Source: Verrucomicrobiota bacterium (GTDB lineage: Bacteria > Verrucomicrobiota > Verrucomicrobiia > Verrucomicrobiales > DEV007). Taken from it: a DNA stretch of 64,000 nucleotides. How positions within the stretch are numbered: position 1 is the stretch's first letter; each line of letters begins with the position of its first letter. Position numbers and translations under genes: made by a program. Where the stretch lies: positions 10,195 through 74,194 of the forward strand of contig PKCI01000011.1 in NCBI GenBank assembly GCA_002862135.1. The letters run 5' to 3'. Positions 5,905-29,209 of the stretch are shown here, one piece after another. The notes under the pieces were generated by a model that did not search any database, was not told where the DNA came from, and worked only from the letters and a program-made list of their open reading frames with translations.

Positions 5905-7395
5905 ATGAAAACATTGTCTTCCCGACTTCTCGCGATCTTCGCTCTAACCACGCTCGTCTCCTTGGCCTGCAACCTCCGAGCAGAAACCAAACGCCCCAAC
6001 ATTCTCTGGTTGGTCGGCGAAAACATGAAACTCGATCTCGGCTGCTATGGCACTGAGAACGTCAAAACACCAAACCTCGACGGTCTCGCCGCCAAGGGTG
6101 AGCGCTACACCCACGTTTTTTCTACCTCCCCCGTCTGCGCTCCCAGCCGAAGCGCTTTCTTCGTCGGCATGTACCAAACTTCGAGCGACACCCACAACAT
6201 GCGCTCCCATCGCGAGGATGATTACCGACTTCCGGAAGGCGTTCGTCCGCTCACGCATCGGCTCATGGATGTTGGTTATTTCACCGCCAACATCGCAACC
6301 ATGAACGGGGAGGAAGTCGGCTCAGCCAAGCTCGATCTCAACTTCGTCAACGAAGGCAAGCTCTACGACACCGATAAGTGGGAAGACCTCAAAAGCAACC
6401 AGCCCTTCTTTGCCCAGGTAAACATGCTCGAAGCCGAGTACGACATCTACGACCGCCAGACGTGGAAACAGCCGCGCGTCGAATGGAAGGGTGAAAAGCA
6501 TCACGAAAAAATTGCCACCGCCGACAATGTGACTCCCCCGCCCTACTACCCCGACCACCCGCTCGTCCGCGAAGAGTGGGCGCGCTATCTCAACTCCATC
6601 TCCGGAATGGACAAGACCATCGGCAAAATCCTCGCGCAGCTCGAGAAGGACGGTGTGGCCGATGACACGGTCATCATTTTCTTCGGCGACAACGGCCGCA
6701 TCGAGCCCCGCGGCATTCACTGGTGTTATGACAGTGGCCTGCACGTTCCCATGATCATCCATTGGCCCAAAAATTTCCCGGCGCCAGCCAACTACTCTCC
6801 CGGCGCAGTCAAAGACGAAGTCATCAGCCTGATTGACCTCACTCCGACCACGCTTGGCTTTGCCGGGATCGAGCGCCCGCTTGGGATGCATGGCCGCATC
6901 TTTCTGGGCGACCGACTCGGACCGGAGAGGAAGTATGCCTTCTCAGGTCGTGACCGGGTCGACGAAACCGTTAATCGCATTCGCAGCGTGAGGGGCCAGC
7001 GCTACCACTACCTTCGAAACTACTACCCCGATCGTCACTTCACTTCACTGAACCGCTACAAGGAAAAGTGTTTCCCCATCAAACCACTCATGCGCGAGAT
7101 GATGGAGAACGGGGAACTTTCCGGCCCTCCTGCGGATCTGATGTCTGACACGGTCGCGCCCGAGCAGCTCTTTGACACGGTCAACGATCCCCACGAGATC
7201 AACAACCTCGCCGATTCTGAGGAGCCAGAGCATGTCGAAGCCCTCATTCGCATGAGAGCCGCATTGGACACCTGGATGGTGGAAACCCAGGACCAGGGAG
7301 TGTTTCCTGAACCCGACGAGATCGTCGCTCCCTTCGAGAAAGAAATGCATGACTGGTTCGGCACTCCTGAGTGGCATCCCTACAAGGGCGACTAG
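5905..7395 (+). CDS. Sulfatase (formylglycine-dependent), secreted
   Basis: Signal peptide, RPNILWLVGE, active-site motif CAPSRSAF, IFFGDNG. ORF track starts at 5869; ATG at 5905 is more plausible. Confidence 0.92.
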   Translation: MKTLSSRLLAIFALTTLVSLACNLRAETKRPNILWLVGENMKLDLGCYGTENVKTPNLDGLAAKGERYTHVFSTSPVCAPSRSAFFVGMYQTSSDTHNMRSHREDDYRLPEGVRPLTHRLMDVGYFTANIATMNGEEVGSAKLDLNFVNEGKLYDTDKWEDLKSNQPFFAQVNMLEAEYDIYDRQTWKQPRVEWKGEKHHEKIATADNVTPPPYYPDHPLVREEWARYLNSISGMDKTIGKILAQLEKDGVADDTVIIFFGDNGRIEPRGIHWCYDSGLHVPMIIHWPKNFPAPANYSPGAVKDEVISLIDLTPTTLGFAGIERPLGMHGRIFLGDRLGPERKYAFSGRDRVDETVNRIRSVRGQRYHYLRNYYPDRHFTSLNRYKEKCFPIKPLMREMMENGELSGPPADLMSDTVAPEQLFDTVNDPHEINNLADSEEPEHVEALIRMRAALDTWMVETQDQGVFPEPDEIVAPFEKEMHDWFGTPEWHPYKGD

Positions 7396-25488: not shown

Positions 25489-26529
25489 TTAGAACGATCG
25501 CTTGGGTCCGCCGGTGTCGTTGTGGGCCGGAATCGGGCTCTCAAACCCCTCGTAAGCGGATGGCTTAATTCCTTTCGCCTGTCCCTTGCCACTAAACGTA
25601 TTCGGCTTGAACGGGCCGACAAACTCGATGCTTGAATCACCTTCAATCTTATCTTCCATGCCGATCGACCAATAGATTGCATTCACCAGCATGCGGCGGT
25701 AACCCTCGTTGAGAATATCTTCGGAAGTCCCGTAGAGTGACGTGAAACTGCGCCCCTCTTTTCCATCCGGGCTGTTCTTGTAAGTGCGGGTCCACTCGGA
25801 GGCCTTGGGCGGCTTGGAGGGATCTGGTTCACCGTCCTGCTCCATACTCATGAGAGGCTGTGCCGTTGTTAGAATATTCCAGTCGTCCTGCGGCTCCGCA
25901 TTGTATCCACCGACATGCACCCAGATGTCGCTGACGCCTTTGAGGATCGGATGGGTTTCTTTGCCCGGCTCAATGGTTATTCGCGTGCTCTGCTGGTGGT
26001 TCTTTCCGTAGTGGCCGACCCAGGTCTGTCCCTGGACCTGGTGACCGAAGCCTTTTAAATACTCCTCGCCGTCATATTGAAAGTGATACTTGCGATAGGA
26101 GCTTTCGGAATCCTTGGGGTATCTGAAACCGTGAGTCGAGGTGCGCAGGGCCACGACCGGACCGCCGTGGTTGAGGTAGGCGTCGAGGTGCTTCATCTGC
26201 TCATCCGGCGGAGCCAGGAAGCGGGTAAAGATTACCAGGCCGTCGGCATCGTCGAGCGCTTCAATTCCGGGCAGGTTGGATTTGCCCGCGACGATGGTTC
26301 CGTCCTTTTCATCGATCCCGAACACCACGACACACTCAAATCCGTGGTGCTTTGCCATGATCCGCGCCAGTGCCGGCAGGGTTTCCTCGGAGCGGTATTC
26401 GTGATCGCTCGCAATGAAGACAAGCTTCTTCCCGTTCGCTTGGTTAGCGTCAGGTTGGTAAGTCAGCGGGCCGGCAAACAGCGACGTAGAAATGACGGTC
26501 AAAAGTAGAGCAATGAGTCGGGATTTCAT
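25489..26529 (-). CDS. ThuA-like (trehalose-utilisation fold) secreted protein
   Basis: KKLVFIASDHEYRSEETLP, GGPVVALRTSTH, THPILKGV, GRSFTSLYG...RRMLVNAIYW. Confidence 0.75.
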   Translation of the reverse strand: MKSRLIALLLTVISTSLFAGPLTYQPDANQANGKKLVFIASDHEYRSEETLPALARIMAKHHGFECVVVFGIDEKDGTIVAGKSNLPGIEALDDADGLVIFTRFLAPPDEQMKHLDAYLNHGGPVVALRTSTHGFRYPKDSESSYRKYHFQYDGEEYLKGFGHQVQGQTWVGHYGKNHQQSTRITIEPGKETHPILKGVSDIWVHVGGYNAEPQDDWNILTTAQPLMSMEQDGEPDPSKPPKASEWTRTYKNSPDGKEGRSFTSLYGTSEDILNEGYRRMLVNAIYWSIGMEDKIEGDSSIEFVGPFKPNTFSGKGQAKGIKPSAYEGFESPIPAHNDTGGPKRSF

Positions 26530-26861
26530 GGGAGTGAGCCGGCGGGATTGAAAAACCGGCGGGAAACACCATTAAGGAATCCCCCCTGCCTGTCGAAGTG
26601 AGATTATTCCGATTCGCGCTACGATAACCGGTGGCGTGAGATGCCATGCGGTCAAATAATCCGGTCTGCTTTCCTGCACTACGCTTTTTCTCGATTGCAG
26701 AGGCATTGAGCCCGGCCCCAGCCATGCCCACATAGAGAAATCCGTCCGATCCATTAAAGATCGTATGAATTTCGGCTGTGACGCGGGGAATATCCCGAAC
26801 AGGCCAGTTAGCGAACCGATGGAGCGGTGCTTCCTCCTATTGCTGAGCAATACTTTTCAAA

Positions 26862-26920
26862 GGCCAACATTCGAGCTAAGGCGCGCGGTCTGCCGCGTCG
26901 TCTTCAGCGTCTTGTTCGGC
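26862..26920 (-). mobile_element. Integron attC site (59-base element)
   Basis: Minus strand GCCGAAC-AAGAC-GCTGAAG-ACGACGCGGCAGACCGCGCGC-CTTAGC-TCGAAT-GTTGGCC: R'', 5-nt spacer, L'', central hairpin, L', 6-nt spacer, R'; 59 bp in total. Confidence 0.8.
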
Positions 26921-28165
26921 GATTCCTTTACTCCTCCTGCCCGGATCAAGGAAAGGCTTTATCTTTGTAAAACCAAACTGGCCGCAGTCGTTGGCCACGA
27001 GAGCGCCGCCATCTCTGGTGAGGCAGACATCCTCTCCCGCCCAATCACCACGTCGCGCACCATAAATACCTTCCCATTCTAGATTTCCTTTGGAATCCGT
27101 CTTGATCAGGTAAACCCTCCACTGACCTGAGTTCCCCGAAGGGTGTCCGCGACCTTCATATTTCTTTGTTTCATCTCCGGTGCCGGCAACGATGATCCAG
27201 CCGCCATCCGGTGTCGCCCTTGCCCCCCACACTTCATCGTGAATCCATTTGCCGTCGTAACCTCTTGGTTGACCAAAATACTTCGACCACAGAACCTTCC
27301 CTTTTGGATCCACCTTGGTTATTTCGACATCCCAGTTCTTGCTCAGAGGACTCCTTCGGGTGTGTCCAGCCTGGATCATGTTGCCGTCCGCATCCATGTC
27401 AAATCCCCAATAGACAGTGTTGTAAGTCTTTGCCCAAAGGATCTTTCCGGAAAGATCTGTTTTGAGAAGGTTGAAGTCAGGCTTGCCTTCCGTATGCGGA
27501 TGCCCGGCGACAATATATCCATCGCGAACTGTCTTAATTCGGTAGCCCGAAGACATGTGCGAAGAGATGTCCCTTTTCCATTCTGTATTCCCCTCCCGAT
27601 CCGTCTTTATTAAGACGCCTTTGCCCCAATTCTGGAACGTGTTTTCCGCGAGACCGCCTCTGTAGCCTGTAGCAATGATTCCTTCATCTGGAGTGATGTC
27701 AACACCTTCAAATGCATCCTCCGAACCTAAGTTCCAGGTTTTCTTCCATAATACCTCACCGGTCGCAGCATCCAATTTGATAAGCGCAGCATCGTAATTG
27801 AGGCAACCAGCGACTAGATAGTTGTTGTCGACTGTCTCTACAACGCAGTTCCCCAGATTGTATCCGGGGGTCCCGAATTCCTGAGTCCACTTGAGCTTGC
27901 CAGTGGAGTCTGTTTTGACGACAAAGATTCTTGCTGTTTTGTCATCAATGAATCCGGTGTCGCCAACCATGAGGAAGCCACCATCGCGCGTTTCGATCAC
28001 GTAATGGGGGTGGCTTTCGTCTCCGCTTCCGTTGTATGCCTTGTGCCATTCCATCTCGGGCGCTTTACGAGAAACAGTATTCTCAGCGCCATCCACAAGA
28101 AATGATGTGATTGCCATGAATACTGCACAGAACAGCAAGAATCTTCTGCACATGTCTTTCTTCAT
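26876..28165 (-). CDS. Secreted 7-repeat beta-propeller protein carried as a putative integron gene cassette
   Basis: Seven W-x-K-x-Y/F-G...DGG/N-x-I-x-A-G repeats and a signal peptide; the stop codon lies inside the attC L' box. Confidence 0.75.
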   Translation of the reverse strand: MKKDMCRRFLLFCAVFMAITSFLVDGAENTVSRKAPEMEWHKAYNGSGDESHPHYVIETRDGGFLMVGDTGFIDDKTARIFVVKTDSTGKLKWTQEFGTPGYNLGNCVVETVDNNYLVAGCLNYDAALIKLDAATGEVLWKKTWNLGSEDAFEGVDITPDEGIIATGYRGGLAENTFQNWGKGVLIKTDREGNTEWKRDISSHMSSGYRIKTVRDGYIVAGHPHTEGKPDFNLLKTDLSGKILWAKTYNTVYWGFDMDADGNMIQAGHTRRSPLSKNWDVEITKVDPKGKVLWSKYFGQPRGYDGKWIHDEVWGARATPDGGWIIVAGTGDETKKYEGRGHPSGNSGQWRVYLIKTDSKGNLEWEGIYGARRGDWAGEDVCLTRDGGALVANDCGQFGFTKIKPFLDPGRRSKGIAEQDAEDDAADRAP

Positions 28166-28402
28166 ATTTCCTCGGCAGAACAGTATTATTCACGGGCGGT
28201 CCCCTTTTTGCGCTACAACTGGATACTTTCGACCGCAGCTCCGCGTTGGTCCGCTCGTCTCCAAACTGAAACATCCTTCGCCGAGGCGAAAGAAAAAACA
28301 AGGTTAGGTGATGTGGATTTGGTGTTCGACTTTGGATCTAAAGCCGGGACGATTTGTTCTCCGGCTTGATCGAGTTGATCGAGAGTCAGGGAATGGTTTC
28401 CC

Positions 28403-28987
28403 CTAACCCATCACTTCATACTGACTGACAAAACTCTGCCACTGCATCGGACGCATCGCGTAGACGCCCTGGCAATGGCGCCCGACGCCGGGATCAAAGA
28501 TCTCCCATCCGAACTCAGAGGTGCGGCGGCCATAATCGAGACGGTAAATCCAATTCCCGAACTCATCCTTACGCCAGAGGTCAGGATCGTTGCCCGGAAC
28601 CACTTCAGCAAATTCCCAGACATTTCGGATCACATCGCGGTCGTATCCAGAGGACAATAACGGCAATTTGGATGCCGCCGCCTCACTCGCCTCACTCGCC
28701 TCACGGACATGCGGGTCGTTGAGCCCGGAATAGCGATAGCAATAGCAATAGCCGTCAGGATAGAGAGGACCGTTATCCTGTTCCGCGGGACTTTCTTCCT
28801 GATCTCCCAGATCAGCTGCATCGACCGCTTCAGAAGAACCCGTCTGGATCACCACTCCATCGCGGTCGACCTGTCGAATTCCCGCATGGTCAGCCGAACG
28901 GGTGTCGCCCACCGGGCCCGAATCGCTGGCTCTATCTAATGCGTCCCACCAATTCGGGAGTACCTCTTCGCTATTGTCGTAAAACAT
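28403..28987 (-). CDS. Hypothetical protein with acidic low-complexity N-terminus and degenerate HNH-like C-terminal domain
   Basis: VWEFAEVVPGNDPDLWRKDEFGNWIYRLDYGRRTSEFGWEI...MRPMQWQ resembles small standalone HNH proteins. Confidence 0.55.
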   Translation of the reverse strand: MFYDNSEEVLPNWWDALDRASDSGPVGDTRSADHAGIRQVDRDGVVIQTGSSEAVDAADLGDQEESPAEQDNGPLYPDGYCYCYRYSGLNDPHVREASEASEAAASKLPLLSSGYDRDVIRNVWEFAEVVPGNDPDLWRKDEFGNWIYRLDYGRRTSEFGWEIFDPGVGRHCQGVYAMRPMQWQSFVSQYEVMG

Positions 28988-29209
28988 GAGAACTGAAAGT
29001 TTGAACAGTAAATTAGTTTACGCGGGTTTTGAGGAATGAAAAGCCGGAAATGTGATTTTTTGAACAGTAGGTTGAAGAACCCTTGATCTACCCATATGCA
29101 GGGCGCTCTACGAGATTGCGAAGATCTCTGGAAGAACCTGGCAGTTCCTCCTTCTCCCGGTCGACCGCCGGGATCAGGAGCAAGATCAAGAGTGAGCGCC
29201 CCAGGAGCT

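What the first reader, a model, noticed from the sequence alone, without database searches (positions are those of the whole stretch)
26862..28181. Orphan integron gene cassette: canonical 59-bp attC and matching cassette ends, no integrase in the window
Seen on the minus strand: R'' GCCGAAC, 5-nt spacer, L'' GCTGAAG pairing with L' CTTAGC with one extrahelical base, a central CGCGG-CAGA-CCGCG hairpin with a second unpaired A, a 6-nt spacer and R' GTTGGCC. A core site GTTCTGC (28175-28181) lies 9 nt before the ATG and matches the complement of R'' (GTTCGGC) at 6/7, better than the downstream R' does, as expected for a circularised and re-inserted cassette. The ORF reads through attC (IAEQDAEDDAADRAP*). 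Established: this is integron cassette architecture. Inference: a solo attC site or remnant of a dispersed array, mobilisable in trans if the genome encodes an IntI. An integron cassette inside a glycan-use region is unexpected and no ORF-level annotation would show it.
Basis: partly seen in the sequence, partly recalled or inferred. Interest (0 to 1): 0.8.

Follow-up and report, generated by a model that had tools for sequence, protein, structure and literature searches.

The report
Lone integron gene cassette, confirmed
A 1.3-kb mobile gene cassette of the integron type, with an intact recombination site, sits alone in the chromosome of a marine Verrucomicrobiales bacterium, and a close copy of the same cassette lies inside a real integron elsewhere; this is a clean example of a known phenomenon, not a new one.

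Summary
On the minus strand, 26862..26920 is a 59-nt attC site. A core site GTTCTGC (28175..28181) lies 9 nt before the ATG. Together they bound a 1,313-bp cassette (26868..28180) that encodes a 429-aa secreted beta-propeller protein.

Three independent lines support this:
- **Covariance models.** Two models built only from attC sites of clinical class 1/2/3 integrons were run without filters over all 64 kb. The only significant hit is this site, matched over the full model (32.6 bits, E 4e-7; next best 10-12 bits).
- **A copy inside an integron.** An 81%-identical cassette of exactly the same length and boundaries is the second cassette of an integron. Its integrase passes NCBIfam TIGR02249. 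A third copy carries the same attC in a third context.
- **Structure conservation.** The three attCs keep the hairpin through four compensatory pair changes. The stop codon sits at a different place in each copy.

The cassette has foreign composition. There is no integrase and no second attC in the window. The insertion is fixed in eight metagenome runs, and metatranscriptome contigs cover it.

This is a single attC site lacking an integrase (a "SALIN"). It most likely arose by integrase-mediated insertion at a genomic GTT. It is a new member of a known kind, of moderate interest.

The parts
26868..28180 (-). The whole gene cassette in its integrated linear form: TTCTGC ... attC ... G, 1,313 bp.
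   Evidence: DNA homology to the L009 integron cassette starts exactly at the G of GTTCTGC. A global alignment of the two units gives 1,313 vs 1,313 bp and 81% identity, with unrelated flanks. GC is 0.508 against 0.56 for the window, in the lowest 1% of windows of that size.
28175..28181 (-). 5' boundary core site GTTCTGC; the recombination point is G|TT. G28181 is inferred to come from the target site and TTCTGC from the cassette.
   Evidence: Read directly. The identical heptamer lies at the same distance from the ATG in L009, where it is the R' of the preceding cassette's attC. It matches the complement of the window R'' at 6/7, and the complement of the L009 and L199 R'' (GCAGAAC) at 7/7.
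26876..28165 (-). Cassette ORF: 429 aa, made of an N-terminal signal/anchor helix, a beta-propeller (residues ~36-405) and a ~25-aa tail encoded by the attC.
   Evidence: Pfam PQQ_2, 34 bits. AlphaFold2 mean pLDDT is 89.7, and the tail 411-429 has pLDDT <50. The best fold match is the propeller of CylK: TM 0.63, 18% identity. The family's conserved part ends at FGFTKIxPF.
26862..26920 (-). attC site, 59 nt. R'' 26914-26920, spacer 26909-26913, L'' 26902-26908 (bulged G at 26905), bulged A at 26898. Central hairpin 26884-26897, L' 26875-26880, spacer 26869-26874, R' 26862-26868.
   Evidence: Fold. Models from known attCs: 32.6 and 30.3 bits, the only significant hit in the window. It aligns without gaps to the attCs of L199 and L009, with 4 compensatory pairs. 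It is 39/60 identical to the aadA1 attC.
26866..26867 (-). TT of the downstream junction, inferred to be the remainder of the genomic target G|TT. The reconstructed empty site is ...GAATAATACT-GTT-GGCCTTTGAAAAG...
   Evidence: This is inference from the known strand-exchange point of integron integrases and the GWT target consensus reported in bioRxiv 10.1101/2022.09.11.507474. No empty site was found.
28182..28402 (-). Upstream flank: non-coding DNA between hyp203 and the cassette. It is not an attC and is not like the attI region of L009. It contains a terminator-like hairpin at 28274-28293.
   Evidence: No structure above shuffles (z +0.45). No model hit. No similarity to L009 5144-5603. 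Hairpin.
26530..26861 (-). Downstream flank: 330 bp of non-coding DNA before the ThuA-like gene (25489..26529).
   Evidence: Translation in three frames. No family hit for the open frame. Unrelated to the DNA that follows the cassette in L009 or L199.

Best explanation
Window 26868..28180 (minus strand) is a genuine integron gene cassette that sits alone in the chromosome of a marine Verrucomicrobiales bacterium. There is no integrase, no attI and no second attC within 64 kb, so it is a single attC site lacking an integron integrase (SALIN).

The cassette carries one gene, a secreted beta-propeller protein of unknown activity, plus a 59-nt attC.

Most likely history (inferred):
1. A circular cassette was excised from an integron like the one on contig L009.
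2. An integron integrase supplied in trans recombined the folded bottom strand of its attC with a genomic GTT, an 'attG'-type secondary site. This site lay in the spacer between a hypothetical gene and a ThuA-like gene.
3. That produced the junctions ...ACTG|TTCTGC... and ...GAATG|TTGGCC....

The insertion then became fixed in the population. The region is covered by metatranscriptome contigs that run across both junctions, which is consistent with read-through transcription. These libraries can contain DNA, so transcription is not proven.

Compared with its two relatives, the window attC has picked up two pairing-weakening changes. It may therefore be on the way to domestication.

Shown: the attC, the cassette boundaries, the integron-borne homologue, the foreign composition and the fixation.

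Inferred: the direction of transfer, the attG route and present-day mobility.
For: - **attC identified by independent models.** R1 gives 32.6 bits, E 3.9e-7; R2 gives 30.3 bits, E 3.9e-6. Each is the single significant hit in 64 kb, both strands, filters off. Real attCs not used for training score 18-36 bits. There is no false hit above 15 bits in 1.4 Mb of other marine DNA.
- **Same unit in an integron.** In L009 a divergent tyrosine recombinase passes TIGR02249 'integron integrase' (309.5 bits, cut-off 265). It is 39-42% identical to IntI1/2/3. It is followed by cassette 1 and then the 81%-identical 1,313-bp cassette. In L009 the start of each cassette is the perfect complement of its own R''.
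- **Third copy.** L199 has an attC scoring 33.6 bits, with different downstream DNA.
- **Structure is conserved, not protein.** Of 14 stem pairs, 4 carry compensatory changes and 95% of cells are paired; 5/500 shuffles reach this and slid controls are near zero. The stops lie at three different places, and the tail is disordered in the model.
- **Foreign composition.** GC is 0.508 and GC3 0.547, against 0.56 for the window and GC3 of 0.68-0.745 for the neighbours. These values equal those of the L009 copy.
- **No vertical synteny.** Homologues sit in many contexts and phyla. The ThuA relative L183 lacks the gene.
- **Not an assembly artefact.** The locus is on 15 contigs and in 10 of the 12 DNA runs laid, with no joints.
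- **Precedent.** The GWT secondary-site route and SALINs are described in bioRxiv 10.1101/2022.09.11.507474.
Against: - No empty site was recovered, so the insertion event itself is not seen.
- No relative closer than 70-73% (ThuA) could be examined.
- The rest of the genome could not be searched for intI or further attC sites.
- My models are home-made from 10-21 attCs and miss some real sites. For example, the attC of L009 cassette 1 scores only 8.9 bits. A divergent second attC in the window therefore cannot be strictly excluded.
- The R boxes depart from the consensus at one position each.
- Metatranscriptome contigs may include DNA, so transcription is suggestive only.
Confidence: 0.8

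Rival explanations
1. It is the last remnant of a decayed chromosomal integron or cassette array. The integrase, attI and the other cassettes were lost by deletion, leaving one cassette.
For: There are unusually long non-coding stretches on both sides: 220 bp upstream and 330 bp downstream. The downstream one has a 128-codon open frame without a start codon, which could be a dead cassette. The upstream hyp203 gene has intermediate GC3 (0.595). My models miss some atypical attCs.
Against: No intI fragment is anywhere in 64 kb (tblastn E<=10). There is no second attC hit with filters off. The upstream spacer has no structure above shuffles and no likeness to the attI region of L009. The locus is wedged between housekeeping carB and a ThuA-sigma/FecR-PSCyt-DUF1501 block that is partly conserved in a relative.
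Confidence: 0.13
2. The window locus is the source, not the recipient. A resident chromosomal gene acquired an attC here and was then captured by integrons, so this would be cassette genesis.
For: Close non-cassette homologues exist in the same clade: L198 at 83-85% and L174 at 80%. They lack this attC. Boundaries alone do not give the direction of transfer.
Against: The cassette's composition is foreign to this genome and identical to the integron copy. Relative to the L009/L199 consensus, the window attC carries derived changes that weaken pairing: R'' A3>C and G20>A. The 5' untranslated region and the core site are shared with the integron copy.
Confidence: 0.05
3. It is a chance hairpin, a transcription terminator or a REP-like palindrome that merely resembles an attC.
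For: The hairpin lies at the 3' end of a gene. In a 99-nt context its folding energy is not above shuffles.
Against: Model E-values are 4e-7 and 4e-6, with nothing comparable in 1.4 Mb of control DNA. There is no T-run, and the terminator scan does not list it. It is not repeated in the window. The homologous element lies at a cassette boundary in an integron.
Confidence: 0.02

Closest known systems
SALIN: single attC site lacking an integron integrase, i.e. an isolated cassette (Cury et al. 2016, PMC4889954; Neron et al. 2022, PMC9024848; Loot et al., bioRxiv 10.1101/2022.09.11.507474)
   Same: There is one CDS with one attC, and no other att site or intI nearby. The junctions are compatible with attC x genomic GWT ('attG') insertion.
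   Different: The host is an uncultured marine Verrucomicrobiales bacterium. Here the single site is validated by an integron-borne homologue and by covariation, which published catalogues of single sites lack; there they are treated as possible false positives. The actual insertion event and any excision are not demonstrated.
attC sites of the aadA1 / aadB / catB8 type (60 nt) of class 1 integron cassettes
   Same: The geometry is the same position for position: 7-nt R'', 5-nt spacer, 3 bp, one bulge, 6 bp, bulged A, short GC hairpin, 6-nt spacer, R'. Identity to the aadA1 site is 39/60.
   Different: The central hairpin is 5 bp with a 4-nt loop instead of 6 bp with a 3-nt loop. The first bulged base is G rather than C on the top strand, as in the cmlA1 and VIM-1 sites. 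The R boxes are GCCGAAC/GTTGGCC instead of GTCTAAC/GTTAGAT. There is one A.C mismatch in the L stem.
Cassette 2 of the metagenomic integron on L009 (ENA ERZ24794640, NODE_6956)
   Same: The length is the same, 1,313 bp. The GTTCTGC start is the same, the gene is the same (81% nt, 81-86% aa identity), and the attC is homologous with the same 59-nt length.
   Different: L009 has an intI 0.85 kb upstream on the opposite strand, a preceding cassette and following repeats. Its R'' is the perfect complement of its start. The window copy has none of that context.
Resistance cassettes found at secondary sites outside integrons (reports from the 1990s, recalled from my own knowledge, not checked here)
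   Same: A cassette with an intact attC inserted at a short GTT-like site outside any integron.
   Different: Those cases are on plasmids of clinical bacteria and carry resistance genes. This one is chromosomal and environmental, and its cargo is a beta-propeller of unknown function.

Membership tests
attC site / integron gene cassette | Imperfect inverted repeats R''-L''...L'-R' with the conserved triplets AAC (in R'') and GTT (in R') | tested here: met
   Read: GCCGAAC ... GTTGGCC and L'' GCTGAAG / L' CTTAGC. Each R box departs at one position from RYYYAAC / GTTRRRY.
attC site / integron gene cassette | The single strand folds into a hairpin with extrahelical bases on the L'' side and an asymmetric unpaired central spacer (5 vs 6 nt) | tested here: met
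   DNA fold: bulged G16 and A23, spacers of 5 and 6 nt. The geometry equals that of the aadA1 attC.
attC site / integron gene cassette | Significant score against a covariance model of known attC sites | tested here: met
   R1 32.6 bits, E 3.9e-7; R2 30.3 bits, E 3.9e-6; sole significant hit. These are my own models built from plasmid-borne attCs. IntegronFinder's attc_4 model was not available.
attC site / integron gene cassette | The cassette is bounded by G|TT points, and the first bases of the cassette complement its own R'' | tested here: met
   GTTCTGC vs the complement of R'' is 6/7 in the window and 7/7 in L009. Homology to L009 begins at that G. Both units are 1,313 bp.
attC site / integron gene cassette | The same unit is found as a cassette next to an integron integrase | tested here: met
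   L009: intI passes TIGR02249 and the cassette is at position 2.
attC site / integron gene cassette | Recombined by an integron integrase (excision / integration) | not testable with these tools
   This needs a recombination assay. Contigs of 10 of the 12 DNA runs laid that hold the locus show no excised or empty form, but contigs drop rare variants.
Complete integron | intI with adjacent attI and cassette array | tested here: not met
   No IntI-like sequence is in the 64-kb window. There is one attC only.
CALIN (cluster of attC sites lacking an integrase) | At least two attC sites within about 4 kb | tested here: not met
   The second-best model hits score 10-12 bits (E 0.85-3.7), and the best of them lies inside carB. 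The sensitivity of my models is incomplete.
SALIN (single attC lacking integrase) | One CDS-associated attC with no other att site or intI nearby | tested here: met
   Definition from bioRxiv 10.1101/2022.09.11.507474.
Intrinsic terminator | GC-rich hairpin immediately followed by a T-run | tested here: not met
   Not listed by the scan. The hairpin is followed by CGCCTTAGCTCGAATG.
Integron integrase (the L009 protein, not in the window) | Tyrosine recombinase scoring above the curated cut-off of the IntI-specific model | tested here: met
   TIGR02249: 309.5 bits, cut-off 265. It is 39-42% identical to IntI1, IntI2 and IntI3.

The most novel reading that the evidence does not exclude
The clade of this beta-propeller gene contains two kinds of copy at only 15-20% protein divergence. 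Some are cassette-borne (window, L009, L199). Others are chromosomal and lack the attC and the cassette 5' end (L198, L174).

If the non-cassette copies are ancestral, this would be a rare young case in which the birth of a cassette can be reconstructed: the attC would have been added over the 3' end of a resident gene, giving the attC-encoded tail. If instead they are derived, it would document stepwise domestication, meaning loss of the attC after insertion at genomic sites.

A side reading: the attC is iso-structural with, and 65% identical to, the aadA1/aadB class of clinical attCs. This hints that marine bacteria such as Verrucomicrobiales share that attC type.
Probability: 0.12. Interest if true: 0.65.

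Novelty: new member of a known kind. Interest (0 to 1): 0.4.

Why it matters
Single attC sites are usually discarded as possible false positives. IntegronFinder 2 reports only clusters of two or more by default (PMC9024848). Here a single site is shown to be real by evidence independent of the model that finds it.

It is therefore a natural, fixed example of an integron cassette living outside an integron, in an abundant uncultured marine lineage. Metatranscriptome contigs cover it, which suggests but does not prove that it is transcribed. This is the outcome that the laboratory work on genomic 'attG' insertion predicts.

The finding also flags a widespread family of secreted beta-propellers as integron cargo. 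That family occurs from Opitutae to Poseidoniales archaea. No protein-level annotation would reveal any of this. It does not change what is known about how integrons work.

Tried and rejected
- **Empty site via the ThuA neighbour.** The nearest relatives are only 70-73% identical. L183 shares the downstream ThuA...sigma/FecR-PSCyt-DUF1501 block but has a different upstream side and no propeller gene. L185 is not syntenic. This is suggestive but not a clean empty site.
- **Empty or excised forms in sequencing runs.** Twelve DNA runs were laid, all kept as contigs. There are no joints at the cassette. At 80% likeness only short carB fragments of unrelated taxa were laid.
- **A second attC upstream**, which would make hyp203 a cassette. 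There is no structure and no model hit.
- **Upstream flank as an attI remnant.** There is no similarity to the attI region of L009.
- **A GIY-YIG-like reading of the open frame downstream of the cassette.** There is no Pfam or NCBIfam hit and no relative in any locus. Dropped.
- **One MAFFT alignment of all 22 known attCs.** The 3' halves of long sites were misaligned, so I built the model iteratively instead.
- **attC at the 3' end of more distant homologues (79% identity or less).** None has one.
- **Function of the cargo.** The fold search gives only generic propellers, the best being CylK. No activity can be assigned.
- **Failures without information.** (script machine failure; structure string one character too long).
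Full report
**1. What is in the sequence**

On the minus strand the window reads, from 26920 to 26862: GCCGAAC AAGAC GCT-G-AAG A CG A CGCGG CAGA CCGCG CG C CTT AGC TCGAAT GTTGGCC. This is 59 nt.
- The ORF 28165..26876 (429 aa) runs into this element and stops at a TAG inside the L' box.
- GTTCTGC lies at 28181..28175, 9 nt before the ATG.
- The bottom strand is 3.6 SD more stable than shuffles.

**2. Is it an attC? An independent model test**

Neither Rfam's library nor IntegronFinder's model was at hand, so I built my own models from sites that have nothing to do with this window.

I found class 1, 2 and 3 integrons in the plasmid collection by tblastn with an integron integrase. I fetched twelve of them and delimited their attC sites behind annotated cassette genes: aadA1, aadA2, aadB, catB8, cmlA1, VIM-1, OXA-type genes, aacA4, dfrA genes and others.

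- **Model R1.** Built from ten sites of the 60-110-nt class, with only the R and L stems declared as pairs.
- **Model R2.** Rebuilt from the 21 sites R1 found in those plasmids.

Results over the whole 64-kb window, both strands, all filters off:

| Model | Hit at 26862..26920 (-) | Model positions | Next best |
|---|---|---|---|
| R1 | 32.6 bits, E 3.9e-7 | 1-60 | 9.9 bits |
| R2 | 30.3 bits, E 3.9e-6 | 1-60 | 12 bits, inside carB |

Each model gives exactly one significant hit.

For scale:
- Genuine attCs that were not in the training set score 18-36 bits with R2 (aacA4, dfrA14, arr-3, dfrA27, DUF3788).
- R2 over 1.4 Mb of other marine loci gives nothing above 15 bits except one site that turns out to be a homologue of this attC.
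- The element is not repeated in the window, and the terminator scan does not list it.

Its geometry is position-for-position that of the aadA1/aadB/catB8 attC, with 39 of 60 bases identical to aadA1. The one visible oddity is G rather than C as the first bulged base on the top strand. The attCs of cmlA1 and VIM-1 also have G there.

**3. The same unit is a cassette in a real integron**

The exact protein is on 15 marine metagenome contigs with the same neighbours.

Its closest relatives gave the decisive context. P0002 (81% identity) lies on contig L009, laid out as follows:
- A divergently transcribed 394-aa tyrosine recombinase.
- About 460 bp of spacer.
- A 382-bp cassette with a 91-aa ORF.
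- Then the P0002 gene.

The recombinase scores 309.5 bits against NCBIfam TIGR02249 'integron integrase' (curated cut-off 265). It is 39-42% identical to IntI1, IntI2 and IntI3.

DNA homology between the window and L009 begins exactly at the G of GTTCTGC (window 28181 = L009 5985). Between the two G|TT points both units are exactly 1,313 bp and 81% identical. The DNA on either side is unrelated.

In L009 the first seven bases of each cassette are the perfect complement of that cassette's own R'': GTTAAGT / ACTTAAC for cassette 1 and GTTCTGC / GCAGAAC for cassette 2. This is the signature of circularisation and re-insertion. The L009 attC (7246..7304) is the top R2 hit there (18.8 bits, E 0.003).

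A third copy, on contig L199 (P0005, 85% identity), has the homologous 59-nt attC. It scores 33.6 bits. It is followed by a ribosome-binding site and another co-oriented ORF, in DNA unlike either of the other contexts.

**4. Structure, not protein, is what is conserved in the attC**

The three attCs align without gaps. Counting pairs on the named structure:
- The L and central helix has 14 pairs. Four of them carry changes on both sides (13-46, 17-43, 27-34, 28-33), and 95% of cells are paired.
- Only 5 of 500 shuffles reach this.
- Versions with the 3' partner slid by 1-3 columns fall to 22-44% paired.

With three sequences this is modest statistics, but it is consistent.

The stop codon lies in the L' box in the window, in the hairpin loop in L199, and in the 3' spacer in L009. 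The family's conserved protein ends about 25 residues earlier, at FGFTKIxPF. The AlphaFold2 model (mean pLDDT 89.7) is confident for the propeller but below 50 for residues 411-429. So the tail IAEQDAEDDAADRAP is a by-product of reading into the attC.

Relative to the other two copies, the window attC has two changes that weaken pairing:
- R'' GCAGAAC > GCCGAAC, which lowers the match to the cassette start from 7/7 to 6/7.
- G20 > A, which creates an A.C mismatch.

**5. Foreign origin and population status**

- **Composition.** The cassette's GC is 0.508 against 0.56 +/- 0.017 for 1,313-bp windows, which puts it in the lowest 1%. Its GC3 is 0.547, against 0.68 (ThuA) and 0.745 (carB). The values for the L009 copy are practically the same, 0.502 and 0.544.
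- **Host.** By carB the host is a Verrucomicrobiales bacterium, 99% identical to an NCBI MAG of that name.
- **Distribution of homologues.** Homologues at 79% identity or less lack the attC and sit in many unrelated contexts. They occur in Opitutae, Planctomycetota, Lentisphaeria, Bacteroidota, several other bacterial phyla and Poseidoniales archaea. Of about 185 loci, only L009 has an integrase.
- **Tree.** In a distance tree the three cassette-borne copies fall in one clade together with two non-cassette copies, L198 and L174/L094.
- **Fixation.** The insertion is present without joints in the contigs of 10 of the 12 DNA runs laid, from several studies; the other two, X24 and X12, were not informative or not checked run by run.
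- **RNA.** Metatranscriptome contigs cover the gene and run across both junctions into hyp203 and ThuA. This is consistent with read-through transcription, although such libraries can contain DNA.

**6. How it most likely got there**

There is no intI in the window and no second attC. The upstream spacer is unstructured and unlike the attI region of L009.

The simplest reading is integrase-mediated recombination of the cassette's attC with a short genomic site. Joining the two flanks gives ...GAATAATACT-GTT-GGCCTTTG..., which contains a GTT. This fits the GWT consensus that Loot and co-workers report for genomic 'attG' insertion sites. The same work introduces the term SALIN and shows that such cassettes excise only occasionally (bioRxiv 10.1101/2022.09.11.507474).

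This step is inference, because I found no empty site. The nearest ThuA relatives are 70-73% identical, and the best one (L183) has lost synteny exactly upstream of ThuA.

The main rival is a decayed integron. It is not excluded, but nothing positive supports it.

**7. The cargo**

The protein has an N-terminal hydrophobic helix and a beta-propeller.
- Pfam PQQ_2, 34 bits.
- A weak NCBIfam match to the SBBP propeller lipoprotein family.
- The best structural match is the propeller of the alkylating enzyme CylK (TM 0.63, 18% identity), followed by generic propellers.

No activity can be assigned. Its neighbours in other genomes are often sulfatases and PSCyt/DUF1501 pairs.

**8. Verdict**

In kind it is already known. 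Single attC sites lacking an integrase were noted in 2016 as being of unclear relevance (PMC4889954). IntegronFinder 2 hides them by default as possible false positives (PMC9024848). Genomic insertion has since explained them.

What is new:
- The host lineage.
- The cargo family.
- The validation of a single site by an integron-borne twin and by covariation.

The interest is moderate.

Noticed in passing
window 28675-28704 (inside hyp203, 28403..29011 minus strand): There is a 9-nt insertion/deletion polymorphism: CGCCTCACT is put in behind 28678 in one run. Several short variant unitigs occur here. Many public assemblies break at this point.
   Followed up: partly
window 28403-29011 (-): The hypothetical protein upstream of the cassette has no Pfam or NCBIfam hit. 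Its C-terminal ~80 residues (120-200) are shared with 475 clusters of mostly ~100-aa proteins (51 at E<=1e-10). This is an undescribed small domain.
   Followed up: partly
window 25489-26733 (-): Public gene calls give the ThuA-like gene 414 aa. In the window the extension contains an in-frame stop. The real start is the ATG at 26529, followed by a signal peptide (346 aa).
   Followed up: yes
window 26453-26836 (-): One frame stays open for 128 codons in the spacer after the cassette but has no start codon until a GTG at 26731. It looked GIY-YIG-like by eye, but no family or relative supports that. It could be a dead gene.
   Followed up: yes
L009 7353-7487: Two 53-nt direct repeats lie 82 nt apart right after cassette 2. 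Each contains the palindrome CCAACGTTCCGTTGG. They may be very short cassettes or another repeat type. The contig ends there.
   Followed up: partly
L009 5604-5985: Cassette 1 of the integron (91-aa ORF, GC 0.38) has a long hairpin attC with only 3-nt spacers. It scores 8.9 bits with the class-1-derived model, which shows the model's limited reach for environmental attCs.
   Followed up: partly
loci L014-L173: The beta-propeller family occurs at 40-69% identity in Opitutae, Planctomycetota, Lentisphaeria, Bacteroidota, Pseudomonadales, Dehalococcoidia, Neomarinimicrobiota and Poseidoniales archaea. In many Opitutae it is followed, overlapping its stop codon, by a conserved secreted gene containing the motif LKILSYNIKHG.
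   Followed up: no
L174 1-12713: A 77%-identical homologue sits among many small ORFs without known domains and SEC-C/DUF7986 genes. The layout looks array-like, but no attC hit or integrase was found.
   Followed up: partly
window 28274-28293 (-): A terminator-like hairpin with a T-rich tail lies between hyp203 and the cassette start. The number of such sites in the region is not above shuffles.
   Followed up: no
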